In this document: positions 3,958 to 62,613 of the stretch, in pieces
How positions within the stretch are numbered: position 1 is the stretch's first letter
Layout: every line of letters starts with the position of its first letter
Sequence record: PZ402305.1
Direction: 5' to 3' (one strand)
DNA: 64,000 bases
From: a phage
Made by a program: the position numbers and the translations under genes
Notes under the pieces: model-generated
The model's input: the letters and a program-made list of their open reading frames with translations, nothing else
What the model was told of the DNA's origin: nothing
Database searches by the model: none

Positions 3958-4012
3958 CACCGGATCACGCTTACATTATCATTTATCACGTAGGGCGGGA
4001 ATGTTTCCCGCC
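3954..4012 (+). promoter_or_regulatory. PeSL-like cassette 7: TTGACA-N16-TTATCA plus GTAGGGCGGGAAtgtTTCCCGCC
   Basis: Precedes ATG at 4031. Confidence 0.5.
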
Positions 4013-4030
4013 TGATTTAGGAGTCATATC

Positions 4031-4264
4031 ATGATCGAACAAATTAAAAGCACTAAACCAAATGTTAACGGTAATGTTTCTCACTTTATCGGGGATAATG
4101 AAAGAGGTACACCGTACGCCGCCGTAACCGTTCAACCGAACGGGGATTATTGGTTTACCGTGTACGGATCTTACTCTTTTGGACGTTCGGCACATGATAA
4201 GATCTTGCAAGTGGTTAAGCCTACTGGGAAGAATATCACAGCAGAAAAATTTTATAAAAAATAA
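4031..4264 (+). CDS. hypothetical protein (77 aa)
   Basis: Track ORF. Confidence 0.5.
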   Translation: MIEQIKSTKPNVNGNVSHFIGDNERGTPYAAVTVQPNGDYWFTVYGSYSFGRSAHDKILQVVKPTGKNITAEKFYKK

Positions 4265-4265
4265 C

Positions 4266-4325
4266 TTGCTTTATAGCTCCTGTTAACTTATAGTTATTGC
4301 GTAGGGCGAGCAATACAGCAAGCCC
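4266..4325 (+). promoter_or_regulatory. PeSL-like cassette 8: TTGCTT-N17-TATAGT plus GTAGGGCG leader
   Basis: -35 region reads TTGCTTTA (MotA-box-like); conserved GTAGGGCG follows -10; precedes ATG at 4343. Confidence 0.45.
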
Positions 4326-4342
4326 ACAAAGAGGAAAAGAAG

Positions 4343-4711
4343 ATGAGCAAATCAGCAATTAAAGCACTTGAAAAAGCACAAGAAGTGATCGCAACGTCAA
4401 CCACTGGCGCAAAGGTTAATCTCGTTGGTTATCTGACAGATGAAACTATCCGTAAAAATTGGCGTAATGCTGATTTACTGGCTTGCTTATTGATTAATAG
4501 TGTCGCTAATGCTTTCCAGTGTGAAACAGCCGAGAGCCTGGAGGAAAACTTGTTTGATAATATGGATCAAGCCATTGAAACCTATATACAATCAAACATG
4601 GATAGCTGGAACAGTAAAACATGGCCCGACAATTTACGCGATACAACTGATCAACTGATCCGCCTTGCCTTGATGGTTGAACGCGATAACGTTCACAACC
4701 GCACAAAGTAA
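4343..4711 (+). CDS. hypothetical protein (122 aa)
   Basis: Track ORF with AAGAGGAAAAG RBS. Confidence 0.5.
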   Translation: MSKSAIKALEKAQEVIATSTTGAKVNLVGYLTDETIRKNWRNADLLACLLINSVANAFQCETAESLEENLFDNMDQAIETYIQSNMDSWNSKTWPDNLRDTTDQLIRLALMVERDNVHNRTK

Positions 4712-4721
4712 GATTATACAA

Positions 4722-4748
4722 GGGGCGCACCAAGCGCCCTTTCTTTTT
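4722..4748 (+). terminator. rho-independent terminator
   Basis: GGGCGC-accaa-GCGCCC stem-loop followed by TTTCTTTTT. Confidence 0.7.
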
Positions 4749-4749
4749 G

Positions 4750-6360
4750 CCCGAATAATGTTGATAGATTCCGCCTATGGAAAACCGACACAGAACAAAA
4801 CTGAATAAATAGCGGTATCGAGCTAATCAACCATTAAACGAATAACCATACCTCCCAGGGTAACAGGCTGTTAGAGAGCCATTTAGAGCGGTTAAAATCG
4901 ATCAACAACCAACAAAAAACCATCAAAAACACCCTTTTACCTCCTTTCTAGTGCAATGATAACCATTATCATCTATCCATGTTTATCTATGCAATATAAG
5001 TGCATAACTATAATGTTGATAATAGTTCGCAACAACTAACTAACCAACAACCTAAAACAATAAGCAAACTAATCATAATCAAAGGAATAATAGCAAGATG
5101 ATTGATAACGACAAACAATCAAACCATGATGAATACTAAGCAAGATAACGATAACACGACAAAACAACCAACTAACGAACAATAACAAACGAAACCATTA
5201 AAATAATAACTATTAGCAAAATAGTGCCTGAATGAAATCATTACAAAACGAATCATTCACAGGATCATCATTAGCACGCTATGCCGGACACATAGCGAGC
5301 TAATAATAAGCCAACTACACCCCAACAATCATAACCATCGGTGATGGTTATTTCTTGTTACTGCGTAGCTTGCAATAATTGCAAGCGTAATACGCTTACA
5401 CTTATTGCGCTGGCTTATTATTAGCATTATATGTAATTACCAAGATCATAACATTAGCGCAATAACAATAATCATTGTGGTAATTACAAGATGAAATAAT
5501 CGCTATCGCTCAAAGATCATTAGCAAGATGAATAATTGCACGTAGCAACATGAGCGAATAGCGACAGGTTGCATAGTGTGCACATAGATGTACACGTAGT
5601 GTATAAACATACAGGAAAATAAAGGCTAATCTTTTGGGGGCGAATACTATCGCGTAGCGATATGTTGAGCACTAAGAGAAGAGATAAACCTTAATCATGG
5701 GGGCGTAAATATCCGCAGGATTGCCAACGGCGATCCGGTAGGATGTTGAGCATCTTCTCTTAAACGTAAATAAAATCAGAAAATTCTTGATTTATTTTAG
5801 TTTTTATGTTAATAAACGTTTAAATAATAATCATTCTCATATGAATAATAGTCTGCTTGTCATGAGCGGGATCAGTTGACAATGTTCCGTCATATGATGA
5901 AGTTGCCAAACCATTGATAAATAAGTGTTTGTGTGATTTATAATCAAGTGGCCCACCTTGTCGCTATGTTGGCATGAGCCTTGCATAAGTCATTGAATAC
6001 GAATGATAATTATTCTCATTCGCATGATATTTGAGAATTGTCGCTGCGTGGACCTGACGGCCCGAAAATTCGCGTTAAGCACTTCTTACGTATGCGCCAT
6101 GATTTTTGCCATATGATATTGATTCTATTAGATATTCTTGCCATGATTGCCATGAAACAGGGTGTCCCGAAATAATCTCTCCCCGTAGATATTTTGGGTT
6201 ACTTTTTATACAAGAGTGGGGTGTCAAAAATAATCGGTATATATGGGATAATTGATAGGAATCCCCTATGATAATTCGATTGTAATTCCCTGAGATTGAT
6301 CGTATGATGTTGGTGATTGATGATTGCCATGAAAGATGGCTAACAATGAGAGGAGATTAT
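4750..6360. other. 1.6 kb ORF-free, repeat-bearing non-coding region
   Basis: No ORF of 60 aa or more on either strand; C+A-rich top strand at 4750-5550; short direct and inverted repeats at 5600-6340. Confidence 0.5.
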
Positions 6361-6361
6361 C

Positions 6362-6706
6362 ATGCAAGAGAGTAAAAATGTTCCGTTGAGTAGTTTACGT
6401 CTAATGAAGTTTTACAAAGCTTGGCTTGCTGGTGAGGTAGAAGGTCACACAACGAGTGGTTTGTGCATATGTTTGATTAAGTATGTAGAGGGAACATATC
6501 CTGATGAACTGTTACCTCGTCTACAACAGGAGATGAAATCACAGTTTATTGGTGCAGGACTGGATTACAATTTCCCGTTTAATGAAGGTGGTTATGAGGA
6601 ATACACCTTCGAACATAAAAAACATATTTGCCATAAAAACAAACATCGTATACAATGGGTGCTAGATAGAATTCAAGATTACGAAGGAGAGAAAAATGAC
6701 AAATAG
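6362..6706 (+). CDS. small Cys-containing protein, paralogous family member 1
   Basis: GAGGAG RBS; shares FYKAWL..GLCxCL..AGLDYNxPFN..RxQWVxDRI motifs with five other ORFs. Confidence 0.6.
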   Translation: MQESKNVPLSSLRLMKFYKAWLAGEVEGHTTSGLCICLIKYVEGTYPDELLPRLQQEMKSQFIGAGLDYNFPFNEGGYEEYTFEHKKHICHKNKHRIQWVLDRIQDYEGEKNDK

Positions 6707-7064
6707 TATTCCGTTGAGCAGTGCAACATTGCTTCGCTTCTATAAAGCATGGATTGCCAACTATCCTGCAATGAATCGCACAACGAGTGGCTTATGTGGT
6801 TGTCTGGTAGATTATGTAAATGATTTTGTTGGTGAGACAACCAGAGAAGAAGATAGAAGATGGCGGGATAGTTTGTTGGACCGTTTGAAATATGAAATGA
6901 GGAAACAATTTACATGTGCAGGGCTGGACTACAATCTTCCGTTCAATACAGATTGCATGGATTACCTTTCAGAGTGTATAAACTTGGCGTGTCATACCAA
7001 CACGTTACGTCTTCAATGGGTGAAAGACAGAATTGAAGATGCAAATAATGCTTGCATTGAATAA
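6696..7064 (+). CDS. small Cys-containing protein, paralogous family member 2
   Basis: Tandem to member 1; LLRFYKAWI, SGLCGCL, AGLDYNLPFN, LQWVKDRIED. Confidence 0.6.
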   Translation: MTNSIPLSSATLLRFYKAWIANYPAMNRTTSGLCGCLVDYVNDFVGETTREEDRRWRDSLLDRLKYEMRKQFTCAGLDYNLPFNTDCMDYLSECINLACHTNTLRLQWVKDRIEDANNACIE

Positions 7065-7795
7065 AGATGTTTGTATAATGGATGACATAACAGATAGCCA
7101 ATGAGGAGATTGAAATGTCAAATATGAAAACTGTATCCTTGTATTTAGCTAACACGGATCGTGTGCACACCCTTGCTAATGCAAGTCGTGTACTCGTGCA
7201 GTTCCGAAACTTTGCACCGTCCGTTGTGACAGGCAGTGAAACGTGTGTTATCGATTTCATTAACGAATACTTCCGAGGGAATCCGGTTGGTCGTTATTTC
7301 ATTAAGGGTCTGAAGGATGCATAATATGAAACGCATGAAAATTCGTATTGAGAATGATGGTGGTTATAAAGGATTGGCACATGCAAAATTTCCACTTGTG
7401 CTGGAAGCTACGGTGGAATACAGTGGGCTTGCTCATGTGCGATTCTCGAAGATGATGGAAGTGCAGGAATGGTTTTGGGACGAGATAGATGCACGAGAAG
7501 GGGAAGATTATGTTTTCTTTCCTCACGAATATGAAATTGTTTATTAAAGGTTGTGTGCAATGATCACACCACAACAGAATGAAGCAGCAATGGATCTTCT
7601 TGACAGTTTGTATTTCGATAATTGGTACTCTGAATGTGAATGGATGAATATGCAAACTCTGAAAGAGAAGACAAAAGCGTTGATTACAGTAGATCAATTT
7701 CTTACAGAGACGGAAAGAATGAATTATGATATGGCATCTCGCGCACGACGCGTTTCCATTTTCAATAAAATGTTAGCATTATGGGGAGGTAGAAA

Positions 7796-8257
7796 ATGAG
7801 ACAACCATCTATACTGGAAGCGCATGTGCAATGTGTTGTAGATTATGTCAAAGAACACTCAAGTTTGTTGAATGTAACCTGTGCAGTGCAAAACGATGTA
7901 GGTATTGTCTGTGTGCAACATATCTTATCTGAAACTCGTTATGAAGTATTTCGTGCCACGTTGTTTGGATGTGATCGAGTGCATGTAAACTTCCTGGACT
8001 CCAATTATCGTTATGCTTTAGAAAATATTGATGATTATCTTCCTTGCTCTCCGACAGGATATGTAATGGTAACAGCAAACGAAGTAACACCGAGCAACAG
8101 TGAACAGGAAGCTTTGTTACGGAAGAAAATACGCCAACTGCAAGTGTTGAATGAACTGAAAGAAGAGATTGAAAAAGAACTAAAAGAAGATTTTGGTATG
8201 CTTCCAAAAGACGCTTTGAAATGGTATGATGAGTTAGGAGGAGAGAACAATGTTTAA
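7796..8257 (+). CDS. hypothetical protein (153 aa)
   Basis: Track ORF, ATGA overlap with upstream gene. Confidence 0.45.
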   Translation: MRQPSILEAHVQCVVDYVKEHSSLLNVTCAVQNDVGIVCVQHILSETRYEVFRATLFGCDRVHVNFLDSNYRYALENIDDYLPCSPTGYVMVTANEVTPSNSEQEALLRKKIRQLQVLNELKEEIEKELKEDFGMLPKDALKWYDELGGENNV

Positions 8258-8708
8258 AGAAGGTCATGTCTACCGTTTCCAGGATGAGGATTATATGCGA
8301 TTATATTCTACCTTTGATAACAGTATTGCTGCTATCATTGGAGAGAATTTTTTCGAGGTGTTGAGCACTGATGCAAATGGTAATATCTTGTCAATGGTTG
8401 TGATAGGTATGAGAGATGGTATTATCACTGCTAGTGATGGGGATCGTTACATAATCAATTCTGCTCATATAGATTATTTTGTTGACGGTGGTATTCGTGG
8501 TGGTCGTGGAAAACCACAAGAAGAACCTGTTGATACAACAAAAGAAGAGTGGTATGTTGTAATGACTGATGACACCTGTATTTCTGGATTTGAAAGTTAT
8601 GAAGAAGCTTTGAAAGAGGCAGCAGAGCATAAAATGTCTAATCCTACAGAAGAGGTTGAAGTTTATAAACGTTTGGTTGTTGCTACCATCGGCGTATCTT
8701 TTGTTTAA
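8250..8708 (+). CDS. hypothetical protein (152 aa)
   Basis: GGAGGAG RBS. Confidence 0.5.
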   Translation: MFKEGHVYRFQDEDYMRLYSTFDNSIAAIIGENFFEVLSTDANGNILSMVVIGMRDGIITASDGDRYIINSAHIDYFVDGGIRGGRGKPQEEPVDTTKEEWYVVMTDDTCISGFESYEEALKEAAEHKMSNPTEEVEVYKRLVVATIGVSFV

Positions 8709-8721
8709 AAAGGGGAATGTT

Positions 8722-9159
8722 ATGTTTAAAGTTAATGCTGTTTATTGTTTCAAAAGTAAAGCTGCCTGTGAAGCTTTCTCTATGATCTCTGATGAAAATT
8801 TCAAAATGGCAGCTTTGATTGAAGGGTCTTGTTTCCGCGTCGAGGATGTTAGTGAATCAGGGTCTGTTTGCTCATTGACTTTATTGGACAGCGGGGATAT
8901 TATTGAAGCTGGACAGTATCCGTTCAGGAGTTGGGAGATATTGTTAGCTCGCGGAGAGCGTAACTTTTTTATGTGCGTGTCTGCGGGGGAAGTTGTGAAA
9001 GAAACTAAGGATGTTTCTGTTTACAATTCTGAATTTATAAGTTATAGTGAGTATCAACATCTGGAAGGCATTGTTGGTCACTTGTTATCTCTGATTGACA
9101 TTGAATGTGACCTGCCTGAATCATTGAAAGAAGAGTTGAAAGCATTAGATCTGCTGTAA
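8722..9159 (+). CDS. hypothetical protein (145 aa)
   Basis: Internal ATG after AAGGGGAA RBS. Confidence 0.45.
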   Translation: MFKVNAVYCFKSKAACEAFSMISDENFKMAALIEGSCFRVEDVSESGSVCSLTLLDSGDIIEAGQYPFRSWEILLARGERNFFMCVSAGEVVKETKDVSVYNSEFISYSEYQHLEGIVGHLLSLIDIECDLPESLKEELKALDLL

Positions 9160-9482
9160 TGTTTCGCACAACGAAAGGAGAATAAGATGAATCTGACCGA
9201 ACAGTTACGCCGTATTGCAAAAGAAGCTTCCTTCAACTTCCCTGTTGAAGAAGTGATCGAGACATGTTTTGCTGAAGCACGAGCGGGAAACTCTTCAAGA
9301 AATTTCACGCCATCTGATTTTGGTCTGAATAATTCTCCCACCCACCCAGAGCAGATCTACAATCAGGTGAAGTGGATGGATGAAGCAGTAGCAATTCTTC
9401 GTGAGCGTGGGCTTATTGTTTATAAAGAAATGGATCTGAACGGGGCATACGAGTGGATCACTATTGATTGGTCCGAGGTGAA

Positions 9483-9719
9483 ATGATGAAAGGTAACAAG
9501 ATGAAAGTTAATCAAGTGCCGAGCGCATACACTTTGTGGCTTGCGCGAGCGTTACACCAGACGATCAAAGACCCTAAGAAGCCAATGAAGAGTGGGAAGA
9601 AGTTTATGTCTAAGGGCAAAACAACCTTTGGCTTCACTCGTATGTCTATCAAGATGAAAAGGCTGGGGTACAAGCCAAACTACGCTCGTTACCCTTCTGA
9701 ATACAACTGGTTTGACTAA
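9483..9719 (+). CDS. small basic protein (78 aa)
   Basis: ATGA-coupled start; Lys/Arg-rich. Confidence 0.4.
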   Translation: MMKGNKMKVNQVPSAYTLWLARALHQTIKDPKKPMKSGKKFMSKGKTTFGFTRMSIKMKRLGYKPNYARYPSEYNWFD

Positions 9720-10211
9720 AGAGGAGAACAAAACATGAAAACATCTATTCGCGTAAAACATGATCCAAACAGCAGTTACCCATACGCGGATGTTGAACGT
9801 CACGAAGGAGACTATTACACCATAAAACGTAAAGTCCCAACTGATACAGGGTTTAACTTTGATGTTATTGCGCTGGATGATCAAGGTGTTGATAATCTGG
9901 TGAATGCATTACTCGCATTGAAGGAAGTACGATATGAAAATCAGACTAAAGGTAAAGTGGCTTTCGATTCTTGTGATCGTTTAGCCGAAGAGATTGCCGA
10001 ATGGCGCGACACTCACTAAAACAGGAGAAAGACTATGGCTACTTTTCAACAATTGAAAGATGTTTCACGTTTAGTAAGAAAAATCCGAGAAGCAGACGCT
10101 GCTGTGCGGAATGCACTAACGCCAGCAGAGCGTGAAGATCTTGAAGAGGAGGTGAAAACAGCCGAGAATGCTTTTGCTGTGTATCTTTCAACCCTGTACA
10201 CAGGAGGTTAA

Positions 10212-10526
10212 ATGTCAGAAGAACTTAAAGAATTTTATCAAGCATATCATAACTGGCTGTTAGCTGGTGCTCCAGATAATAATCCTTTCTGGCATGATAA
10301 AGGATTATGTAGTTGCCTCTACCTTTGGACTGGAGGTTATGATGATCTAAATTATGAAATGCAAATGCAATTCCGTGAGGCAGGATTGTCTGAAGAATAC
10401 CCGTTTGATGACGGAGACTGGTTTAAATATGATTTTGCACAAAGAAACGGGCTATTGCATTTGAATGCTGCCCGTATAAAATGGGTAAAAGACCATGCTA
10501 CACAGGAGGATGTGCAATGCCAATAG
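10212..10526 (+). CDS. small Cys-containing protein, paralogous family member 3
   Basis: FYQAYHNWLL, KGLCSCL, AGLSEEYPF, RIKWVKDH. Confidence 0.55.
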   Translation: MSEELKEFYQAYHNWLLAGAPDNNPFWHDKGLCSCLYLWTGGYDDLNYEMQMQFREAGLSEEYPFDDGDWFKYDFAQRNGLLHLNAARIKWVKDHATQEDVQCQ

Positions 10527-11447
10527 TGTTTAGTTTCTTAGTAATTGTTATGGTTGTTCTTTTCGCGGCATGGCTTTGGGATTTTGACCCAGGAGCAGCG
10601 CAGCAAAGAGCTACAGACTGGAAAGAACAATGTATTGTGCTCAAACATGAACGAAATGCGGAGAAATTTCTTGACCTGGAGTGTGATCGCCTTGTAAGAT
10701 ACAAGCAAGATAAATAACCTTGAGGTGCAAAATGGTAATTGAGATTAAACTTGAATATGCTGGGGCTGTTGCTCTGATCGCACAAACGCTTGGAGCAAAG
10801 ATTGAAGAAGTGTATATCAATGCCTGGAGCGTAGAGATTGATGTTCCTATGGACAACATTGCTAATCGCTTGCTGGTGGCAGAGTGTGAACGCACCAACA
10901 TAATCTACAAAGGAGCATAATATGAAAATTAGAGTTTGTGATGTATTGGGTTATGTTGGTTTTGAGAATGTTCAGATTCCTTTTGTTGTTGAAGCACATC
11001 TTGTTAGCGATGACATGACAACATTCTTTGTTACGATAGAAGAAATGTCCAAAGTTGAGGGATGGGAGTGGTTTGAAGAAGATGTTTGGGAAGGTTGTGA
11101 TTACGTATTTTTCTCTGATGAAGTGAATATTCTTGCGGAGTAGGTATGTCTTGTTTTACAAAAGCAGTGTCCATATGTAAGAAACAGTATGAAAGCGATT
11201 ACGGAATATTTAATATTCCAGCAGATCATACGGAGTATTGTTCATGTGGTGGCAGAATGAAGAAAACAGTGATTTATGCGGATAGTGGAGACGAACTTGT
11301 TCCGGTTATGGTTTGCAAAGCTTGTCATTCTGTTAAAACATTAAAAGCGTAAGGAGTCGGGACACCCGACGATTGGAGCTAAAAATTTTGCGTACAACCC
11401 TTTCCGCCCAACAGGGGCGCGTCGGGTAAATAAAGAGGAGAGTTTAT

Positions 11448-11846
11448 ATGAAAAAGATCATCGTAGGTTTATTGTTACTCATTGCATCACTTGGAACAGC
11501 AAATGCGTCTCAAGTTTATGAGTGTGTGTCAGATGTGGTTGTTAAAAATCTGAAAGGTGAAGTTATTTCTGGTCCTAAGAAAATGGCTTCTGTTGTCATT
11601 AATAAAGATAACTCCTTTATCCTTAAAAATTCAGGTGGTGCTTTGATGAGTGGCATTCTGCAACACACGGGAGAAAAAAGTAAAGATGGTAGTGCTATGT
11701 ACGGTTCACAACAGTTTATTGGCACTACTGAAGTTGTGATGATGCGCACAGAGTATCGAGACACTTTGGCTTGGTTTGCATTTCTAAAAAATGATAAAAC
11801 AATAACGAATGTTCTTACTCTAGAAGCTGATTGTACGCAACGGTAA
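11448..11846 (+). CDS. hypothetical secreted protein
   Basis: Signal-peptide-like MKKIIVGLLLLIASLGTANAS; AGAGGAG RBS. Confidence 0.5.
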   Translation: MKKIIVGLLLLIASLGTANASQVYECVSDVVVKNLKGEVISGPKKMASVVINKDNSFILKNSGGALMSGILQHTGEKSKDGSAMYGSQQFIGTTEVVMMRTEYRDTLAWFAFLKNDKTITNVLTLEADCTQR

Positions 11847-13762
11847 GGGGGATATTATGCTGAATGTTTTTACTGCTGATCGTGTAGGAACACCGATTAC
11901 CGAAGAAGAACGTGCAGAGATTACAAAAGAGTTGGAAGATCTTTACCGTGTTTTCTCTGATGAAGAAAGCATTAAAAAAGATGCTGAAAAGATGACAGAT
12001 CTGTTGGGTTTTACTTGGTCCCCAGAATGGACCGCTGTTGCTCTTAGTGCAGATATTTGGGGGTATGAAGAAACCCTACGCACTGGGGTAGTGGCAGCTT
12101 GGTAATATGATAGAGACTATCATTTTCATTGTTCTGGCTATTATTTTGGGTTTCTTAATATATGAATAGAGGTATTTATGACTAAAATGAGACATTACGC
12201 TGTAAACTGCAACGATGCTTGGCGTTTGTGTCCTGATGATCCGACAGAAGGCACATTTGTAAGATATGAGGATTATAAAGAGTTATCGGATGCTGTAATC
12301 GCATTGTTAACTGATATCCGTTCACGTTATCCAGGACAAGATTTCACTTGCCCTCACATCAAACTTCTTGCTTGCTTGGTAGAAGGTGAGAAAGAAGTGG
12401 AAGATGGCTTCAAGCGTGTAGAGTATCAAGGTGAAACTTTAGATGTTCCTGAATTTGTTAATTATATTGCAACAGATTCAAGTGGCGAGCGTTATGGTTA
12501 CACTCATAAACCGGAGATTCCAGATTTCGCTTATGCGTGGCGTATTCCTTATGAAGTTTTTAATGTTGCAGATTGCTGGTATTTAGGAGAAGGAAACAAC
12601 CTTAATTGGCGTGATTCCTTGGTTCAGGTTTAACAATATGAAAGAGACATTGCCAGCAGCATACCGTTTGAATGATGAACGTATTTGGGAGTGGACCGAC
12701 GTTTCTTGTTTTTACCCTGAAATAGTTCAATATTGGCGAGCAAAAGGGTGTGTTGTAGTTATCAACCCATGTGGACCAGTGGATGAAGATTGCTTGTATC
12801 TCGATGGAAAGTGGCACAGTTATTGTCGCTGGCCTTTTGAGTGGATGTGTAAAGAAGATCTCCCAGAGGGTTGGGAGTATCCAAAAGCAAATAGGAGATA
12901 ATATGTCTAAAGATTTTGTTGAAATGTTTGTCAAAGATGAAGAAACTGGTTTAGGCACAGGTTTCATTTGTGAAGAAACCTTTAAGCGTGAACAAGAAAA
13001 AGCTATTCTTATGCGAAACTATGATCACGCATTAGAACAATGGAAAAATGCAGAACAAAAATGCAAAAACCTTTATGCAGAAAATAGAAAACTACAAGAT
13101 CAAATGGAGTTGTTAGCTATCAGTTTACGATCTCTCATTTTGGCTGTAGAAGATGGTTTTAAAAATCCAGATGGTTTTCCTGTGAGCGATATTGAACATG
13201 ATTTGTATCTTGCTCGTGGTGCTTACTTCTATGTTAAACAGAAGTCTGTAGAAGGAGAGAAGTGATGGAAGAAAAACTGGAACGTATTATCGAGTTAGCT
13301 ATGTCTATTGGCTACGACGATTGTTTTCTCCAAACTATTGGAGAAACAGAGAACGATTACGACTCTTGGGTGAAAGAGTTGGAAGAACTTAAAACTTCCT
13401 TGATTGCTGACTTTGCTGAAGCAGAGGATAAAGCAGATCGTTACAACTATCTGTGTCGATAAGCCTTGACATTTATTTTATGTATGGTATACATACATTA
13501 TCAACGTGAGCAAGGTGGTGTAATATGAATAAAGATCGGTTTCTTTCTTTAGTCGCGGAAGCTCCTTTTGATGTTCTTGGAGTGAGATTATGGAAAGACA
13601 GAAACTATGGGTTAGATGTTCAAACATACTCTCTTTGGTTGGTTGGGGAGCACAGCTTAGATGAAAGCTTGTGCATGGGTAGGGATTCTCGTTCCCTCTG
13701 TTTAAAGTTCAGAAGCTTAGAACGCGCAAACAAAGAGCAAGAAAAACTAACGAGGTGGCTAA

Positions 13763-14089
13763 ATGAAAACAAGCGCAAGGTTGATGGAGTTTTATAAAAT
13801 TTATCTAGCATGGATTGATGTTGGTGCTCCTGATGGTAAACCTTTTCGGCGGGATTGCGGTTTGTGTGCCAACTTATTCGACTATGTGCACAGAGGCAAT
13901 TACAACCCCATTATAACAACCTTATCAGATGAAATGCACGCGCAGTTCCACTATAAAGGGTTGAGTCAAGAACTCCCTTTCAATGAGAACTATGATGCAT
14001 ATGTTTTAGAGTCAGATGCAGATGCCTGTCACCTGAACGTGGACAGGATTAATTGGGTGAAAGATCGTATTGCAGAGGAGAATGAATAG
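13763..14089 (+). CDS. small Cys-containing protein, paralogous family member 4
   Basis: LMEFYKIYLAWI, CGLCANL, KGLSQELPFN, RINWVKDRIAE. Confidence 0.55.
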   Translation: MKTSARLMEFYKIYLAWIDVGAPDGKPFRRDCGLCANLFDYVHRGNYNPIITTLSDEMHAQFHYKGLSQELPFNENYDAYVLESDADACHLNVDRINWVKDRIAEENE

Positions 14090-15979
14090 TGGCTGCTTAT
14101 AATTGGTATGAACTTGAAGCTGTTTGTCAGTTTTATGACTCAATAGTTCTGCGTGATCCAATCTGTCAAGAATTGAGTCGCCGTGCAAGTGCATTGGCAA
14201 TCCGTGTTAAAATAAACGGTTGGAACGCAGATTTGGAAAAAGAGTTGGAATTTCTCTTAGAAAACACGCGGGTCTTCCGCAAAGTGTTCCCTGAATGGTT
14301 TGAGATGGAAGAATGATCATGTGGATTGTGCGTCTTAAGTATGATGGCCCTAATCCTTGGGTGAGAACAGTTTGCGGATGTGATACTAAAGAGTCAGCAG
14401 ATAAAGCTGGAAGAATGATAAGTGCCTTTTATAATAGTAAACCTCTTTGTTTAGAAATGTCTGGTGTGGTTTGTATGAGCATGTTCGAATACTACTCTTA
14501 TGAGATCAAAGAACACCAAGGGGAATGGAAATAAATAGTTGACAGAAGGATCTGTCTTTGTCATAATCATCTCATCGAAACAAAGAGGAGAAAATCATGA
14601 AAAAGTTTATTTGCACCCGTTCCACTAACAGTGATATCCTTGTAGGTAAGGTTATCAAAGGAGAACTCTTCCATGCAAACGGTAAGAAATATATTTTGCT
14701 GAAAGATTCTTTCAACGGGGAATATCCGCGCTGCACTTTCTTCAATTACAACACTCCATTTGCTTTAGAAGGAGATGCTTGGGACTGGGCTGAACTCAAT
14801 CCTTGTTGTGAGGAAGAAGAATCTATGTTCTTGGGTTTAAACGTTTACCGTGTAGATTACACCATGTGCGGAGCGGAACATTCTGTTCGCGTAGAAGCCG
14901 AATCCAAACTACAAGCACCTTTCAAGGCGGGATTGACTTTGGGTCATTGTTTGGCAAACATTGAAGATGTTGTGATCCAAAGGGTTGTTTTAGAGAAAGA
15001 GGCTATTTGAGAGAAGACGGCACAATATTTAAATATAAAGATTAACCACAAAGGAGATAGATATGCAAGTTGAAGACCTGATCAAAATTTTGAATGAAGC
15101 CAAAGAGAAAGGTGCTATCAAAGACTGGAAACGTGAAACAAGTGAAGATCTATCTCACTGTTGCCGAGAATTTTACATCGAAGGTATTGCTGACGATCAT
15201 TATATTATCGAATGGTATATCAACTTAATGACTCTTAAGCACGGTTCGTTTGAGGTTTGGTTTGATGACATTGATGTAAATGGTTTTCATCCTGGCTATA
15301 AAATCGCTATGCAGTTATCTTATCGTAGAGAAGTTGTAGCACATTTAGGTTTACATAACTAAGGAGAAAAGAATGCAAGCAGTTGTTAACGAAGCTATTA
15401 TGAACTTATCCTTCTTGTTAGCTGGTTTAGGAGGTGTTCTCATAGGTTTGGCTCTTATCTGGTGTATTCGTCGATTAATCGGGTACCGACAAAAAGGTGT
15501 TTCATGTTTTGTATCTTACAATTTTACAACTGCTTACAGCAATGAAGTTGGATCTGGCAATGCTCAAGCATTTTTACCAACATATCCTCCTACGGTGGAA
15601 GATATTCGAAACTTGGAAGTAGAACTTATGGGACTAAGTGATAACTATACATCTCTAGTTATTCAAAATATTTTTCGACTAAAACAGGAGGCGTGAATGA
15701 AGGTACATTACCCTCATCCATTTGATCCTAAAAACAAAGCCGTAATTCTTCGTCAGTGGCAACGGGTTTGTCGTACTAAATGTCCAATCAATAGCCCACA
15801 CAATGTAGACAAGGACTATCTTGGGACATTTGTTGAATACACTTACATAGACAAAAACAAGCGTAAACAACATGTCGAGGAATACTGCTTAAGAGTAGAA
15901 TGGCTGTAAATAATAAATACCTTGACAAGTGTTTATTCGTTTTGTAAAGTGAGAATACAGCAATGGTTTAGGAGTGGTT

Positions 15980-16651
15980 ATGAAAAAGTTTGTTGTTTAC
16001 AGTCGTCTTTCTAAACAGAAAAAAGGTGAGGCACAATATGGTATGGAGAGCCAAGAGAATGATATCCGTTACTTCTTAGACTCTGTGCCTGATGCGGAAG
16101 TTATTGGTCAATTTTCTGAATACTATTCGGGTAAGGGCGATTGGAAGCAACGTAAGGAACTGGTTAAAGCGGTTGAAATGTGTAAAGCTACCGGAGCAAC
16201 TTTATTGGTAGCTAAAGTTGACCGCTTGGGTCGTAATAACGCCTCCGTAGCAACTCTTCTAGAAATGATTGATGTTAAGATAGCCATCATGCCAGACGCA
16301 GATAAAATGGTTATACAGCTTCTGTCTGTTCTGGCTGAACAAGAAGTTAGAGGTATTGCTGATCGTATTAAAAAGGGTCTTGCTGTAGCAAAAAGCAAAG
16401 GTGTTTTATTAGGCAGTGCCAATCCTAAAACTGCCGCTGCACGTAGAAAAGGAAAAATGGAATACAACTCTGTTAAAGCAGACGCTTTTGCAGAGACATT
16501 CCGTGAACGCTTGGAGATCCTTAGAGATTTAAATACACCTTACAAAACTATTGCTGAAAAATTCAATAGTAAGAAAATAGCAACAGCACGTGGTGGTAAA
16601 TGGGATGCTAAAACTGTTTCTCGTTTGTGTGCCAGACTGAACATTAAATAG
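15980..16651 (+). CDS. serine recombinase (resolvase/invertase family) with C-terminal HTH
   Basis: VVYSRLSKQ (catalytic Ser motif), LLVAKVDRLGRN, C-terminal TIAEKFN...ARGGKW; TTGACA-N17-TAAAGT promoter upstream. Confidence 0.6.
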   Translation: MKKFVVYSRLSKQKKGEAQYGMESQENDIRYFLDSVPDAEVIGQFSEYYSGKGDWKQRKELVKAVEMCKATGATLLVAKVDRLGRNNASVATLLEMIDVKIAIMPDADKMVIQLLSVLAEQEVRGIADRIKKGLAVAKSKGVLLGSANPKTAAARRKGKMEYNSVKADAFAETFRERLEILRDLNTPYKTIAEKFNSKKIATARGGKWDAKTVSRLCARLNIK

Positions 16652-17059
16652 GAGAGGATATGAAACAAGAAAATGAACCTGTAGATCACTTAATCATGCT
16701 GTCAGCCCTTTTTGCCGGATGGGACGTATTTTTTGAAAATTTGTTCAATTCTGCTACAGATGGTTCCGATTTTATGCGCCAGTTTAAACGACGAACTGTT
16801 GAGGACTATGCTTTCTATTCAGGTCGGATTGAAAAAGGTTACGAAGATACAAATACAACACTCACCATTAAAGTTTTAGATGTGATGTTTAGTGTTATAG
16901 ATGCTATCGACGAAAGTCTTCCGATCCTAGATAATTGTAATACGAAAGTCTATGTTTACAAAATAGCTCGTGCTTATGTGTCTGCAAACAGTTGTCTTCT
17001 TTCCACCCAGATTGCCGTGAACAATCTTGCCAACTTGTTTGATGAAGGAGAAACTTTTT

Positions 17060-17425
17060 ATGACAATCGATTTGAAGTGTAAGAGGATTCTTTTAGATTT
17101 CTATAATAATTGGTTAGAACACCTCCGGCTCTTTCCAAGAGAAAGTGGTTACGCTGATGTTGGCTTATGCCGAGGTCTACGTATGTATATAAGTGATGAA
17201 TTTCGGGCCGAGCATTCTTTAGCATATTCTGTTTATGGTATGCAATTAGCCAGTTTTGAAAACGCTGGCTTAGATACAACTTTCCCATTTAACACAGCAA
17301 AATCTTTTGAGCAAGAGTGTAAGGAAAAACGTTGCATGTTTAATGAAAAACGTGTACAGTGGGTTAAGGATCGAGTTAAACAACTGGAACAAGAGTTGGA
17401 TTTCTTCTATGATGAGGCAGAATAA
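17060..17425 (+). CDS. small Cys-containing protein, paralogous family member 5
   Basis: Internal ATG after GAAGGAG; LLDFYNNWL, VGLCRGL, AGLDTTFPFN, RVQWVKDRV. Confidence 0.5.
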   Translation: MTIDLKCKRILLDFYNNWLEHLRLFPRESGYADVGLCRGLRMYISDEFRAEHSLAYSVYGMQLASFENAGLDTTFPFNTAKSFEQECKEKRCMFNEKRVQWVKDRVKQLEQELDFFYDEAE

Positions 17426-17701
17426 TGGATAGACAAACCTTAAAAACAATGGCAGATGCCACTAATTCCCCGTACTTTGAAAAAGTAAGTAAATTGGTAG
17501 CTCAAGCCGCAGAGGAAGGATATTATAACATAAACATCCACAACCCAAGTCTTATACTAGAAATGCCAAGTGATAAGAAGATACAAGAGAGTATCTGTGA
17601 AGGTATTGTTAGTTACTGGCGCGAGCGTGGGTGTGGTGCAAACATGGCTTTAGACAGTGCAAACATTGTAAGATATATAAATATTTCTTGGGGGTGATTT
17701 T

Positions 17702-18313
17702 ATGATTCAATGCACTCATATCCAAATTACTTGGAGAGATGAACTTTACCATTTGGGACAATTTACTGTAGGGGAAACATACCCTGTCATTAAACATAAT
17801 CCTAACATCGCAAACTTTGATAGGATGGTTCTTGTTGAGGACGATCTGGGTCAAACTTATTCTTTAGATCTAAAATATCCGTTTTCTTACGGCTACGATT
17901 GGATCGTTACTTTTGAAGACGTGGAGGAAAATAAAACAATGAACGAAAAAAATTCTTGGTATTATCGTTGTGAACTGCCGCCAGTAGGTGAAAAGGTTAT
18001 CTTTGTTCCTGATTTGGAAAGATATTCTTGGGACAGTTCTTATTCTGTTCCTAAAGAAGGCACCGAAGTTGAAGTTATTGCACATCGCACGACTTCGCAT
18101 GGTAACGATGTAGCAGTTGTTTTCTGGGATGATGAAGGCGCTGCTTGTGCAGGTGGCTTTGTTGCAGGTAACTTTGAACCCCTGCCAGATCCTTTGAAGG
18201 AGGCAATTTTAGGCGTAGCTTCTTTTGGACTCTCTTACACGTCTGCACAGGAGATCGTAGAAGGTATTTTAAACGGTACTGTTCCAAACGAAATTTTCAA
18301 ACAGATTAAATAA
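17702..18313 (+). CDS. hypothetical protein (203 aa)
   Basis: Track ORF with RBS. Confidence 0.5.
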   Translation: MIQCTHIQITWRDELYHLGQFTVGETYPVIKHNPNIANFDRMVLVEDDLGQTYSLDLKYPFSYGYDWIVTFEDVEENKTMNEKNSWYYRCELPPVGEKVIFVPDLERYSWDSSYSVPKEGTEVEVIAHRTTSHGNDVAVVFWDDEGAACAGGFVAGNFEPLPDPLKEAILGVASFGLSYTSAQEIVEGILNGTVPNEIFKQIK

Positions 18314-18364
18314 CAGTTGCACCCCGTTCTGCGGGGTGTTATTGTATATGTAAAGGAGGCGCTA

Positions 18365-18703
18365 ATGTATTACACTGAAGACTACATATTGTATAACTTT
18401 TTTAAAGGTTGGTTGAAATGGGCGGAACAAGCTCCTGTCGGAGATTGTGTTTTTCCTTGGGATTCTCGTCAAGGCTTGTGTCGTTGTTTGGAAGATTGGC
18501 TTATAACCACAAACTACAATTCAGAAACTAAGAAATCTACATCAAACAGATTAAAAATGTTGTTTGAAGAAGATGGTTTAGATCCAATTTATCCTTTCGG
18601 TGAGGAAAGTTTCCACAATGGTCTTTTCCTTGGCACTCAACATTATGATAAAGATCGTGTAGATTGGGTAAAAGAAAAGGTAGCACAGTATGAATGGGGT
18701 TAA
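18365..18703 (+). CDS. small Cys-containing protein, paralogous family member 6
   Basis: Internal ATG after AAGGAGG; FFKGWLKW, QGLCRCL, DGLDPIYPFG, RVDWVKEKV. Confidence 0.5.
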   Translation: MYYTEDYILYNFFKGWLKWAEQAPVGDCVFPWDSRQGLCRCLEDWLITTNYNSETKKSTSNRLKMLFEEDGLDPIYPFGEESFHNGLFLGTQHYDKDRVDWVKEKVAQYEWG

Positions 18704-19037
18704 GAATTATCACCGCTGGTTAGAAAGCTATCTTAAGAAATGTGAACTTGGTGTTCCAGGTTATACTTACGACACGGATGAGATTCTTGACGAAATGGAA
18801 GTTTGGTTTAAAGAGCCTCGTGAACTATTGGAAAACATTCTAATGGCTTGGGATGGTACGGCACAAAGCATTGAAGGAGGTAGAAATGAGTAAGAAATTG
18901 TTTAATATTCGTGAGAACCGTGATGGATCGTTCTCTGTAGTCAATGAGTTTAACGTTTCGGTTGGGACTTTTATTACTAAACGTCAAGCAGAACAAGTAA
19001 GAGATACTTTAAACAAGTAAATTTTTAAGGGGGACTT

Positions 19038-60574: not shown

Positions 60575-60646
60575 TGGCCCTGTAGCTCAATGGGAGAGCT
60601 GTCGGCTCATAACCGATAGGTAGCTGGATCGAAACCAGCCAGGGCC
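60575..60646 (+). tRNA. tRNA with CAT anticodon, tRNA-Ile2 (lysidine)-like
   Basis: Acceptor GGCCCTG/CAGGGCC, loop CTCATAA, encoded CCA; resembles bacterial tRNA-Ile2. Confidence 0.7.
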
Positions 60647-60651
60647 ACCAA

Positions 60652-60723
60652 CGTCTTTATGGTGTAATGGATAGCACAGGAGTCTTCTAAACTCTTAGTC
60701 AAGGTTCGATTCCTTGTAAAGAC
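60652..60723 (+). tRNA. tRNA-Arg (TCT)
   Basis: Acceptor GTCTTTA/TAAAGAC, loop CTTCTAA, T-loop TTCGATT, CCA. Confidence 0.7.
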
Positions 60724-60775
60724 ACCAGAACATTTTAACATGAATTAGCTCAAGTGATTTGAACCCACTACTGAT

Positions 60776-60896
60776 CATGGTGGCAGAGAATGAGGCAAGT
60801 ATGTCAGACATTATAAACAAAGGCCACGGTTATATTAGAAGACATAAATGCTCGAAGAGCACCGTTCGTGGAGAACGGGGGTTGGTGGAGTCACCA
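60776..60896 (+). ncRNA. second candidate structured RNA (about 120 nt)
   Basis: ATGGTGGC at about 60776 pairs with GTCACCAT at about 60889; track ORF 60759..60950 here is probably spurious. Confidence 0.3.
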
Positions 60897-60961
60897 TTCA
60901 TGGTAAAATGTTTTAAAAAACTATTGACAACAAACCTTATTTTATGTTAGATTATAAGTAT

Positions 60962-61049
60962 GGAAGGGCAAATCGACGTGGCGACGAAAACGGTCTTGAA
61001 AACCGCCGAGCTTGAAAGAGCCTTGGGAGTTCGACTCTCCCTCCTTCCG
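60962..61049 (+). tRNA. tRNA-Ser (TGA), type II
   Basis: Acceptor GGAAGGG/TCCTTCC, loop CTTGAAA, long variable arm, T-arm GGGAG-TTCGACT-CTCCC, G73, CCA. Confidence 0.7.
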
Positions 61050-61056
61050 CCAGATT

Positions 61057-61139
61057 GGTAGATTGGTGAAATGGTAGCCACGACAGTTTGCTAAACTGTA
61101 GTCGGAAACGGCGTGTAGGTTCGAGTCCTACATCTACCG
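61057..61139 (+). tRNA. tRNA-Ser (GCT), type II
   Basis: Acceptor GGTAGAT/ATCTACC, loop TTGCTAA, long variable arm, G73, CCA. Confidence 0.75.
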
Positions 61140-61273
61140 CCAAGTTCTTTTTAATATAGCTTACTTTAATAGAGTAAACTTTCGGCAGATGGCCCCCCAC
61201 CATCTTACCGATAACTCATAGTTAGTGGTGTGAACACTGGCTATCTTAAAAAGAATTTAAATATTAGTATTTA

Positions 61274-61358
61274 GGTGAGTTAATTCCGTAGGGGTAGCGG
61301 GGCAGACTGTAAATCTGTTATCATTGCGATTCGGGTGGTTCGACTCCATCACTCACCA
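61274..61358 (+). tRNA. tRNA-Tyr (GTA), type II
   Basis: GGTGAGT...GCAGACTGTAAATCTGT...ACTCACCACCA; close to the bacterial tRNA-Tyr pattern. Confidence 0.8.
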
Positions 61359-61367
61359 CCAAATTAA

Positions 61368-61450
61368 GATGAGTTGGCTGAATGGTTTAAGCGGCGGACT
61401 GTTAATCCGTGTTCGAAAGAACGATATAGGTTCAAATCCTATACTCATCG
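61368..61450 (+). tRNA. type II (Ser-like, G73) tRNA whose canonical fold gives anticodon GTT (Asn)
   Basis: Acceptor GATGAGT/ACTCATC, 3-bp D-stem, loop CTGTTAA between GCGGA/TCCGT, GNRA-capped variable arm. Confidence 0.45.
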
Positions 61451-61532
61451 CCAGAATTATGGACTTGTAGAGTTAAGGTAAACCCCCAGTCGCCAAGAGG
61501 CTTCTGGAATTGCAGGTATCGAATCCTGCCGA

Positions 61533-61604
61533 GTCCCAGCTTTGCTCCTATAGTATAATGGCTATTACAACGGTTTTGTAATCCGTGGATCTCTGTTCGA
61601 TTCA
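61533..61604 (+). tRNA. tRNA-Thr (TGT)
   Basis: Acceptor GCTCCTA/TGGGAGC, loop TTTGTAA, T-arm CTCTG-TTCGATT-CAGAG, CCA. Confidence 0.7.
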
Positions 61605-61931
61605 GAGTGGGAGCACCAACACAACATTAAGGGCACTGTGATTGATCGTCGTATCCTGTGCACAAGGTCTGTTCGAAAGACAGTGTTCTTAGTATTGTGT
61701 TGATCACAAAAAGAGTCACCTGAAACTTGACCGGAGTAGGGTTGGATGGGGTAAAAGAAGAAGCGGCTCTCCCATCGACAGCAACGAAGAATAATATTTG
61801 ACTTTGGTTTTGTATTATTTTAAGTTAGCTTACCGAACGTAGGGCTAGTCACCCAAAGGGATACTCGTCACTGTCCCACTCAATAAAACTATTGACAACC
61901 AATAGTAAAGTGTAGTATAGTAAAGATGTAG

Positions 61932-62002
61932 GGCGTTCTTGGTGTAGCGGTAGCATTCCGTCCTTCCAAGTCGGCGGCACGAGTTCGATCCTCGTAGAAC
62001 GC
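61932..62002 (+). tRNA. tRNA-Gly (TCC)
   Basis: Acceptor GCGTTCT/AGAACGC, loop CTTCCAA, T-arm ACGAG-TTCGATC-CTCGT; D-arm weak. Confidence 0.55.
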
Positions 62003-62103
62003 TCCAAATTATTTAATAAAGGGTTGCCAGAAAACTTTCTCTTTTACTCATGGTTTTCTCCTTCTCTCACACCTCTTCTGGTTGCCCTTCATTAAATGAT
62101 TTA

Positions 62104-62176
62104 TTGGTTTGTAGTGTAGTTAGGTAGCACACGACACTTTGACTGTCGTAGGTTTGGTTCAAATCCAGACAGACCA
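62104..62176 (+). tRNA. tRNA-Gln (TTG)
   Basis: U1:A72 and G73 (Gln identity), stem CGACA/TGTCG with loop CTTTGAC, CCA. Confidence 0.7.
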
Positions 62177-62184
62177 GCCATATA

Positions 62185-62258
62185 ACGGAATTTAGCTCAG
62201 TTTGGTAGAGTGTACGCTTTGGGAGCGTATTGTCGCAGGTTCGAATCCTGCAATTCCG
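62185..62258 (+). tRNA. tRNA-Pro (TGG)
   Basis: Acceptor CGGAATT/AATTCCG, loop TTTGGGA, T-arm GCAGG-TTCGAAT-CCTGC, A73, CCA. Confidence 0.75.
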
Positions 62259-62267
62259 ACCAATTAA

Positions 62268-62338
62268 ATGTTTCGTAGTTCAATGGTAGAACCCACGACT
62301 GATAATCGTGAGACACAAGTTCGATTCTTGTCGAAACA
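62268..62338 (+). tRNA. tRNA-Ile (GAT)
   Basis: Stem CACGA/TCGTG with loop CTGATAA; T-arm ACAAG-TTCGATT-CTTGT; CCA. Confidence 0.65.
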
Positions 62339-62419
62339 ACCAGTTTCCCGTTAGACTTACAGGATAAGAGTTCCACAGCTTATTGTGATGCTGGTTCGAA
62401 TCCAGCACGGGATACCTAA

Positions 62420-62495
62420 TAGCGGGATAGAGGAGTCTGGTCGTCCTCGCCAGTTTCATATGCTGGAGATCATTGGTTCAAATCCAATTCCCGCC
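62420..62495 (+). tRNA. tRNA-Met (CAT), initiator or elongator undetermined
   Basis: D-stem GAGG/CCTC, stem CCAGT/GCTGG with loop TTCATAT, T-arm ATTGG-TTCAAAT-CCAAT, 1:72 mismatch, CCA. Confidence 0.5.
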
Positions 62496-62613
62496 TCCAA
62501 ATATCGCTTGCCAGCGGTATCTTTGAAGACCTTGCCTGGTTCCTTCTAAGATGGAGGGGTGCGACTCCTTAACGCACAATTATAATAAAGCATTTCAAAT
62601 TAACAGTATTTAT

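What the first reader, a model, noticed from the sequence alone, without database searches (positions are those of the whole stretch)
6362..18703. Six-member paralogous family of small Cys-containing proteins scattered through the early region
ORFs at 6362, 6696, 10212, 13763, 17060 and 18365 (about 105-120 aa) share an ordered motif set: L..FY..WL, GLCxCL, (A/E)GL..x.PF(N/D), (C/H)xxN..R..WVKD(R/H). Two are tandem and four are dispersed among unrelated small genes. I recognise no characterised family with this pattern. Diversified multi-copy small proteins in a phage early region typically act in host takeover or counter-defence, but that is inference.
Basis: partly seen in the sequence, partly recalled or inferred. 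Interest (0 to 1): 0.8.

Follow-up and report, generated by a model that had tools for sequence, protein, structure and literature searches.

The report
Six-copy uncharacterised phage early protein family
Six diverged copies of one small, all-helical protein of unknown function sit in the small-gene block of an E. coli phage; the family is widespread in phages (it includes gp3 of phage N4), resembles no solved structure, and is a good candidate for a host-directed or anti-defence factor that nobody has tested.

Summary
The window is a Phapecoctavirus (phAPEC8-like E. coli myovirus). Six + strand genes (6362, 6696, 10212, 13763, 17060, 18365) encode 104-122 aa homologues that are 27-45% identical, and their shared motifs align position by position. 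Each has a Shine-Dalgarno site, a fixed orthologue in related phages and pN/pS of 0-0.3, so all six are maintained genes.

The family is not local. All six match PHROG 2510 (function unknown). An exhaustive profile search finds 2018 clusters. Members include phage N4 gp3 and early-end genes of T7-like, N4-like, T1-like and rV5-like phages. Only 1 of 72,556 plasmids has it, and that one is a phage-plasmid. Pfam, NCBIfam, PADLOC and PDB sequence searches give nothing. A confident five-helix model (pLDDT 93) has no solved structural relative.

Across 91 diverse members L34, C35, P72, F73, R95 and W98 are invariant. Tandem, translationally coupled arrays and fused two- or three-domain forms recur in unrelated phages (up to 10 copies per genome).

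Best reading, which is inferred: an early, phage-restricted accessory domain that pairs with itself or its paralogues and presents a conserved Cys/Arg site against a host target. The function is untested.

The parts
6362..6706 (+). Copy c1, 114 aa (phAPEC8_0018 orthologue); first gene of the tandem pair
   Evidence: ORF. SD gagaggag upstream. phrog_2510 E 5.6e-26. Orthologues have pN/pS 0-0.06. Carries C35, C37, C89 and H90 (c4 numbering).
6696..7064 (+). Copy c2, 122 aa (phAPEC8_0019 orthologue); overlaps c1 by 11 nt (ATGACAAATAG); has an 11-residue insertion between helices 2 and 3
   Evidence: phrog_2510 E 5.8e-26. pN/pS 0.12-0.31. In vB_Ec-G1, c1 and c2 are collapsed into one chimeric gene.
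10212..10526 (+). Copy c3, 104 aa (phAPEC8_0030 orthologue); typical family form with the GAP...PF motif and KDH ending
   Evidence: phrog_2510 E 8e-29. 20 synonymous against 2 non-synonymous differences to KKP 3954. Closer to proteins of other phage clusters (45-53%) than to the in-genome copies.
13763..14089 (+). Copy c4, 108 aa (phAPEC8_0041 orthologue); the most typical member and the one modelled
   Evidence: phrog_2510 E 6.9e-32. AlphaFold2 model with pLDDT 93.3, pTM 0.85 and five helices. pN/pS 0.20-0.25.
17060..17425 (+). Copy c5, 121 aa (phAPEC8_0051 orthologue); divergent, with Met in place of His90 and without E57/Q61
   Evidence: phrog_2510 E 2.2e-26. Zero non-synonymous differences in four orthologue comparisons.
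18365..18703 (+). Copy c6, 112 aa (phAPEC8_0054 orthologue); the most divergent copy; starts 26 nt after a terminator-like hairpin
   Evidence: phrog_2510 E 6.1e-27. pN/pS 0-0.08.

Best explanation
The six genes are long-diverged, individually maintained paralogues of a large, phage-restricted, uncharacterised domain family (PHROG 2510; it includes phage N4 gp3). The domain is a compact five-helix fold of about 105 residues with no solved structural relative.

Proposed mechanism, all of it inferred:
1. The proteins are made early from the first-expressed block of small genes.
2. They pair with themselves or with a neighbouring paralogue. c1 and c2 are translationally coupled, and other phages carry the same pair fused into one chain.
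3. They present a conserved site built from the invariant Cys at the start of helix 2, the His90-x-Asn92 loop, and the invariant Arg95 and Trp98 on helix 5.
4. With this site they bind or chemically act on a host component common to Proteobacteria.
5. The hypervariable segment between helices 2 and 3 and the divergent surfaces give each paralogue its own specificity.
6. The most likely biological role is neutralising host defence or taking over a host process early in infection.

Shown: homology, gene reality, purifying selection, restriction to phages, recurrent multi-copy and fused architectures, a confident fold with no known relative, and the conservation pattern.

Inferred: early timing in this phage, oligomerisation, the geometry of the site, and the host-directed role.
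For: Homology and gene reality.

Stable orthologues in 5 related genomes, with pN/pS 0-0.31.

Family size and membership: 2018 clusters at 50% identity with E<=1e-3. 255 phage records include N4 gp3, N4-like, Autographiviridae, Drexlerviridae, phi92-like and rV5-like phages. BFVD structural matches have TM 0.7-0.9 and are all uncharacterised.

Restriction to phages: 1 of 72,556 plasmids, and that one is a phage-plasmid.

Early or left-end position: N4 gp3 lies at 1214-1528, next to the early cofactors gp1 and gp2, and the N4 left end is injected and transcribed first (PMC4496689). An uncultured N4-like phage has 4 tandem copies directly after its gp1/gp2 homologues. RHEph08 has copies at 1.8-2.9 kb.

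Conserved polar site: C35 and R95 are 100% conserved, N92 93%, Q61 89%, H90 82% and E57 81% across 91 members that share about 35% identity.

Pairing: overlapping tandem genes occur in the window and in L008, L009 and L016. Two- and three-domain fusions exist. A two-domain fusion models with pLDDT 94.7 and pTM 0.80 across a 4-residue linker.

Proneness to expansion: 10 copies in PsgM04F, 6 domains in L014, 4 in L008 and 3 in L016.
Against: There are no expression data for this phage. The sigma-70-like promoter scan is no better than shuffled sequence (50 found against 45 expected).

No host partner, ligand or activity is known for any member, and no paper on function was found.

c5 and c6 lack several of the conserved polar residues. 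Some fused domains have Tyr or Phe at position 90, and one lacks the Cys. The site is therefore not uniformly kept.

Strong purifying selection and fixed positions within the genus do not look like an ongoing arms race at this time scale.
Confidence: 0.45

Rival explanations
1. The proteins are plain protein-binding inhibitors or adaptors with no ligand or catalytic site. The invariant Cys, Pro-Phe, Arg and Trp only hold the fold together, and each paralogue blocks a different host protein through its variable surface.
For: Most invariant or near-invariant positions are hydrophobic or aromatic (L7, F10, Y11, W17, L34, F62, L67, F73, W98, V99). The copies differ most in one loop and on their surfaces. 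Small helical early phage proteins that act by binding a host protein are common (established knowledge, e.g. T4 AsiA).
Against: A Cys with no Ser or Ala substitution and an Arg with no Lys substitution in 91 sequences at about 35% identity, plus N92, Q61, H90 and E57 at 81-93%, is more polar conservation than a fold alone usually needs.
Confidence: 0.22
2. The proteins are oligomeric sponges that sequester small immune-signalling molecules or another host metabolite. Paralogues and tandem arrays would cover different ligands.
For: The domains are small and acidic. There is evidence for pairing and pseudo-dimers. Aromatic and Arg/Asn/His/Gln residues are conserved. The family is phage-restricted and multi-copy.
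Confidence: 0.1
3. The proteins are phage-directed regulators: DNA- or RNA-binding factors, or polymerase cofactors, that time early-to-middle gene expression.
Confidence: 0.1
4. The resemblance is chance, or the ORFs are not real genes.
For: None found.
Against: BLASTP E-values go down to 1e-30. Independent PHROG profile hits reach 1e-26 to 1e-32. Each copy has an SD site. Orthologues are under purifying selection. The fold prediction has pLDDT 93.
Confidence: 0.01

Closest known systems
PHROG 2510 (with weaker matches to phrog_6418 and phrog_27059), function unknown
   Same: All six copies match over their full length, at E 1e-26 to 1e-32. They are members.
   Different: The PHROG carries no function. 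Its profile is 219 positions long because it also covers two-domain fused members, whereas the window has single-domain genes.
Bacteriophage N4 gp3 (ABK54374, UniProt A0MZ95), an uncharacterised gene at the left, first-injected end
   Same: Same domain: tblastn gives 32% identity at E 1e-6, and the family profile gives E 1.4e-24. Same size of 104 aa. It lies in a block of small same-strand genes.
   Different: N4 has a single copy. gp3 has no described function; the one review that was read for it (PMC4496689) describes only gp1, gp2, gp15 and gp16. N4 is a podovirus with its own RNA polymerases.
Early, first-entering anti-restriction or host-takeover genes of T7-like and other virulent phages (e.g. 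T7 0.3 Ocr); analogy by position only
   Same: Small acidic proteins encoded at the genome end that enters first. Family members sit at 1.8-4.7 kb in Autographiviridae records.
   Different: No sequence or structural similarity was found. The six copies are only mildly acidic, not DNA mimics. Any anti-restriction activity is untested.
Phage nucleotide sponges (Acb2, Tad1/Tad2) and small helical host-protein binders such as T4 AsiA; analogy by size and lifestyle
   Same: Phage proteins of about 100 aa that act as oligomers early in infection.
   Different: No solved chain matched the model, and none of the matches listed is one of these. Nothing matched the PDB sequence searches.

Membership tests
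PHROG 2510 (uncharacterised phage protein family) | Significant full-length match to the family profile | tested here: met
   All six copies match at E 5.6e-26 to 6.9e-32, covering profile positions about 4-113.
N4 gp3-like domain family as defined here (alignment A3) | The invariant set G33-L34-C35, P72-F73, R95, W98-V99 in a five-helix domain of about 105 aa | tested here: met
   All six copies carry the set. It is invariant or >=90% conserved in 91 diverse members. The model has five helices.
Any Pfam, NCBIfam or PADLOC family | Score above the curated cut-off | tested here: not met
   The six copies gave no hit in NCBIfam or PADLOC, and only two sub-threshold Pfam matches (bit scores 13.5 and 16). 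Of 91 family members scanned against Pfam, one had a single sub-threshold match and the rest had none. The longer members scanned had no significant extra domain; one has a weak Zn-ribbon tail.
HEPN RNase domain | Rx4-6H motif at the start of the last helix of a four-helix bundle, and structural similarity to HEPN domains | tested here: not met
Structural zinc-binding module (CxC...CH) | Four conserved metal ligands | tested here: not met
   C35, C37, C89 and H90 occur together only in c1 and c2. Across the family C37 is 12% and C89 is 40% conserved, and the two are uncorrelated (Fisher p=1.0). A metal site using C35 and H90 with other ligands is not excluded.
Known anti-defence sponges (Acb2, Tad1, Tad2) or the anti-sigma factor AsiA | Sequence or fold similarity to the solved structures | tested here: not met
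Phage early (pre-replicative) gene class | Transcription in the first minutes of infection | not testable with these tools
   Positional evidence only. The promoter scan was not informative.

The most novel reading that the evidence does not exclude
The domain is a previously unrecognised fold that uses its invariant Cys/Arg site as a small enzyme or covalent or ligand trap against a defence or housekeeping pathway shared by Proteobacteria. The tandem, fused and dispersed paralogue sets (6 here, up to 10 in relatives) would then be a multi-specific counter-defence battery working as hetero-dimers, and N4 gp3 would be its single-copy prototype.
Probability: 0.2. Interest if true: 0.8.

Novelty: new variant of a known kind. 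Interest (0 to 1): 0.55.

Why it matters
This family has more than 2000 sequence clusters and occurs in model phages (N4) and in phages isolated for therapy (Phapecoctavirus, N4-like and T7-like phages of Achromobacter, Burkholderia, Klebsiella and Erwinia). It has an invariant Cys and an invariant Arg, a confident fold with no solved relative, and a repeated tendency to expand to many copies per genome.

If the family is a counter-defence or takeover module, it would explain a sizeable part of the unannotated early region in many virulent phages of Proteobacteria. It would also give a tractable entry point: N4 gp3 is a single copy in a well-studied phage.

If deletion and binding studies find nothing, it is still a well-defined family worth a database entry.

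Tried and rejected
- Pfam, NCBIfam and PADLOC scans of the six copies, of 91 family members and of the longer members gave nothing usable.
- PDB sequence profile searches gave nothing.
- Fused members were searched for informative partner domains. They contain only further copies of the same domain, one weak Zn-ribbon tail, and apparent N-terminal extensions that look like mis-called starts.
- The zinc-site idea (CxC...CH) was rejected as a family feature.
- The HEPN idea (R-x6-H) was rejected.
- A second word-indexed homologue search with the broad alignment returned only 14 proteins and no names.
With a narrower alignment it gave only 6 loci.
- Literature searches on rV5 and Phapecoctavirus paralogues, N4 gp3, phAPEC8 early genes, anti-defence in Stephanstirmvirinae and specific accession numbers found only BLAST-table mentions.
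- The promoter and terminator scan did not exceed shuffled controls.
- Rfam found nothing in 1-22000.
- Model coordinates are not exposed, so the spatial clustering of the conserved residues could not be checked.
Full report
**What the window is.** Megablast of 6000-19000 against GenBank phages gives 119 records. In 55 of them one match covers at least 80% of the query, and the best-covering matches are 95-98% identical. All of the best are Phapecoctavirus (Stephanstirmvirinae; phAPEC8-like E. coli myoviruses of about 150 kb). The finding lies in a 16 kb block (about 6.3-22 kb) of some sixty tightly packed + strand genes, none longer than 225 aa. GC skew is positive there and switches sign at about 23 kb, where a long block of - strand genes begins. 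Ten other proteins of the block were scanned against PHROGs. All fall in families of unknown function except a serine recombinase/invertase at 15974-16651.

**The observation.**
- The six ORFs are present as described. They carry Shine-Dalgarno sites and match the annotation of relatives. The upstream TTG of c6 lies inside a terminator-like hairpin at 18319-18339.
- Pairwise identity is 27-45%, and BLASTP detects 14 of the 15 pairs at E<1e-4.
- A profile of the six, and a broader family profile, each find exactly these six among all six-frame ORFs of the window.
- An independent library profile, phrog_2510, matches each copy at E 1e-26 to 1e-32.
- The only other paralogue relation in the window is one pair, 7317-7547 and 10922-11143.
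Only the first Cys of 'GLCxCL' is a constant feature.

**Are they real, maintained genes?**
- In four of five related genomes fetched, all six copies are present at the same relative positions (phAPEC8_0018, 0019, 0030, 0041, 0051 and 0054).
- In vB_Ec-G1 the tandem pair is replaced by one chimeric gene, with the N-terminus of c1 joined to the body of c2 at the shared 'PLSS' motif.
- Nei-Gojobori counts against the orthologues give pN/pS of 0-0.08 for c1, c3, c5 and c6, and 0.12-0.31 for c2 and c4. For example, c3 against KKP 3954 has 20 synonymous and 2 non-synonymous differences.
- Each copy is therefore under purifying selection. Within this genus the family is stable, not rapidly diversifying.
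- c3 and c4 are more similar to proteins from other phage clusters (45-53%) than to the other in-genome copies (41% or less). The paralogues are therefore old or separately acquired. Only c1 and c2 (45%) look like a local duplication.

**How wide is the family?**
- tblastn with c4 finds 255 phage records. They include E. coli phage N4 gp3, N4-like phages of Achromobacter, Erwinia and Delftia, Autographiviridae of Rhizobium, Ralstonia and Burkholderia, Drexlerviridae, phi92-like and rV5-like phages.
- An exhaustive profile search of 1.84 billion cluster representatives finds 2018 clusters at E<=1e-3 and 1112 at E<=1e-10. Most are single domains of 95-125 aa, and some have two or three copies of the domain in one chain.
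- Only 1 of 72,556 plasmids carries the family, and that record is a phage-plasmid with Phd/Doc and phage genes.
- Every name attached to any member in NCBI, UniRef, JGI or ENA is 'hypothetical', 'uncharacterized' or 'gp3'.
- Two genome papers list members only as BLAST hits to phAPEC8 hypothetical proteins.
- No paper on function was found.

**Known-family tests.**
- Pfam, NCBIfam and PADLOC give nothing for the six copies, nor does Pfam for the 91 diverse members or the longer members tested.
- Profile searches of PDB sequences give nothing below E 0.2.
- AlphaFold2 on c4 with a 21-sequence alignment gives a confident model, with pLDDT 93.3 and pTM 0.85. It has five helices: 5-19, 34-44, 48-64, 77-85 and 93-107.
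- Against predicted viral structures the model matches 20 proteins at E<0.01 with TM 0.7-0.9, all uncharacterised, from the same range of phages.
- The fold is thus well predicted, phage-wide and without a solved relative.

**Anatomy of conservation.** The numbering below is that of c4, and the figures come from 91 diverse single-domain members with mean identity of about 35%.
- L34, C35, P72, F73, R95 and W98 are invariant.
- L7, F10, Y11, W17, G33, F62, L67, N92 and V99 are at 90% or above.
- Q61 is 89%, H90 82% (otherwise Tyr or Phe), E57 81% and H102 70%.
- The invariant Cys is the second residue of helix 2, after an invariant Gly-Leu. H90-x-N92 is in the loop before helix 5, and R95 and W98 are in its first turn.
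- That is more polar conservation than a 105-residue fold normally needs, and I read it as a functional site. I could not check that these residues are neighbours in space, because model coordinates are not exposed.
- Positions 43-53, at the end of helix 2 and in the loop to helix 3, are hypervariable in sequence and length. This is also where the model is least confident (the 41-50 block has pLDDT 82).
- c5 and c6 have lost E57 and Q61, and c5 has Met for H90.
- A four-ligand zinc site (C35, C37, C89, H90) exists only in c1 and c2 and is not a family trait. C37 and C89 are uncorrelated (Fisher p=1.0).
- The consensus R95-x6-H102 resembles the HEPN Rx4-6H motif. However, H102 is absent from five of the six window copies, and no listed structural match is described as a HEPN protein. 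I reject HEPN membership.
- The six proteins are mildly acidic (pI 4.5-6.2) and rich in aromatic residues.

**Multi-copy, tandem and fused forms recur.**
- The related phage PsgM04F has 10 copies in the same block, three of them in tandem.
- An uncultured N4-like phage has four tandem copies directly after its homologues of N4 gp1 and gp2.
- Other uncultured phages have two or three overlapping tandem copies (L009, L015, L016). L014 has five genes with six domains dispersed among unrelated small genes.
- RHEph08 has one single-domain gene and one two-domain gene side by side.
- In the tandem arrays the genes overlap by 4-14 nt, as c1 and c2 do here (11 nt), which suggests coupled translation.
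- Separate adjacent genes in some genomes and fused domains in others is the classic 'Rosetta stone' argument that the domains interact.
- A two-domain member models with pLDDT 94.7 and pTM 0.80 although only four residues link the domains. This fits a fixed pseudo-dimer.

**Timing.** There are no expression data for this phage, and the sigma-70 consensus scan is no better than shuffled sequence. The argument is positional.
[quoted passage not shown] The N4 left end is injected and transcribed first (PMC4496689).
- In N4-like and T7-like genome records the family sits within the first 2-5 kb.
- In Phapecoctavirus, c1 is the first gene after a 1.65 kb ORF-free stretch, and several public records start there.

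**Best explanation and rivals.**
- I commit, at about 0.45, to a phage-restricted early accessory domain that pairs with itself or a paralogue. It would use the conserved Cys/Arg/His/Asn site on a host component common to Proteobacteria. The variable loop and surfaces would set the specificity of each paralogue, and the likely role is counter-defence or host takeover.
- Rival 1: plain protein-binding inhibitors whose invariant residues are only structural (0.22).
- Rival 2: small-molecule sponges (0.10).
- Rival 3: phage-directed regulators or polymerase cofactors (0.10).
- Rival 4: chance or non-genes (0.01, refuted).
- The main points against my reading are the lack of any functional data, the partial loss of the site in c5 and c6 and in some fused domains, and the stability of the copies within the genus.

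**Novelty and score.**
- The genes and the family are already in databases as hypothetical proteins and as a PHROG of unknown function, so the sequences are not new.
- What has not been described, as far as the searchable literature shows, is the family as such: its size, its invariant Cys/Arg signature, its unmatched fold, its membership of N4 gp3, and its repeated expansion into tandem, fused and dispersed sets.
- I rate it a new variant of a known kind (multi-copy early accessory proteins of virulent phages), with interest 0.55.

Noticed in passing
window 4712-6361: About 1.65 kb with no ORF of 60 aa or more, A-rich (AT skew 0.158 for 4001-6000), directly upstream of c1. Several public Phapecoctavirus records begin about 360 bp before the c1 orthologue, and vB_Ec-G1 has the same gap. 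It contains only weak repeats and has no Rfam match. It may be a genome end, an origin or an early promoter region.
   Followed up: partly
window 7317-7547 and 10922-11143: A second, two-member paralogue family (76 and 73 aa, 38% identity, E 5e-11; shared MKIR...W.W.E...DYVFF pattern). Each gene lies a few hundred bases downstream of a member of the six-copy family (c2 and c3), which may be a trace of an old segmental duplication.
   Followed up: no
window 15974-16651: A 225 aa serine recombinase/DNA invertase (phrog_125, E 1e-32) inside the small-gene block of a virulent phage. It is annotated as shorter in Schickermooser (129 aa, described there as a partial PinE domain). An unrelated uncultured phage (L014) also has a resolvase followed by a family member.
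   Followed up: partly
L001 1863-2237 (vB_Ec-G1) against window 6362-7064: The tandem pair c1+c2 is replaced in vB_Ec-G1 by a single 124 aa chimera, with the c1 N-terminus MQESKNVPLSS joined to the c2 body. Database proteins P0012, P0015, P0016, P0018 and P0021 share the same N- or C-terminal ends but have very different middles. This suggests the first locus is a recombination hot spot where alleles are swapped.
   Followed up: partly
window 8250-8708 and 8719-9159: Two adjacent genes both match phrog_3710 (E 1e-32 and 4e-7). The genes at the corresponding place in vB_Ec-G1 are labelled 'goF mRNA metabolism modulator'. Neither the relation between the two genes nor that label was checked further.
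   Followed up: no
window 18319-18339: A strong terminator-like hairpin (9 pairs, 6 of them G-C) ends the gene at 17702-18313 and precedes c6. It is annotated as a terminator in Schickermooser. c6 may therefore start a new transcription unit.
   Followed up: no
window 60576-62499: A cluster of 10 tRNA genes (Met x2, Arg, Ser, Asn, Thr, Gly, Gln, Pro, Ile) on the + strand.
   Followed up: no
phage records MG065650 (Campylobacter phage B15) and OR584014 (Pseudomonas phage PsgM04F): Records labelled as Campylobacter and Pseudomonas phages match this E. coli phage region. B15 is 96% identical over the 13 kb region, and the c4 orthologue of PsgM04F is 85% identical at protein level. The host labels look doubtful.
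   Followed up: no
P0014 (Escherichia phage BI-EHEC): The c5 orthologue in this phage is identical up to residue about 99 and then diverges into unrelated sequence. It is probably a frameshift or a sequencing error that removes the invariant R..WV end.
   Followed up: no
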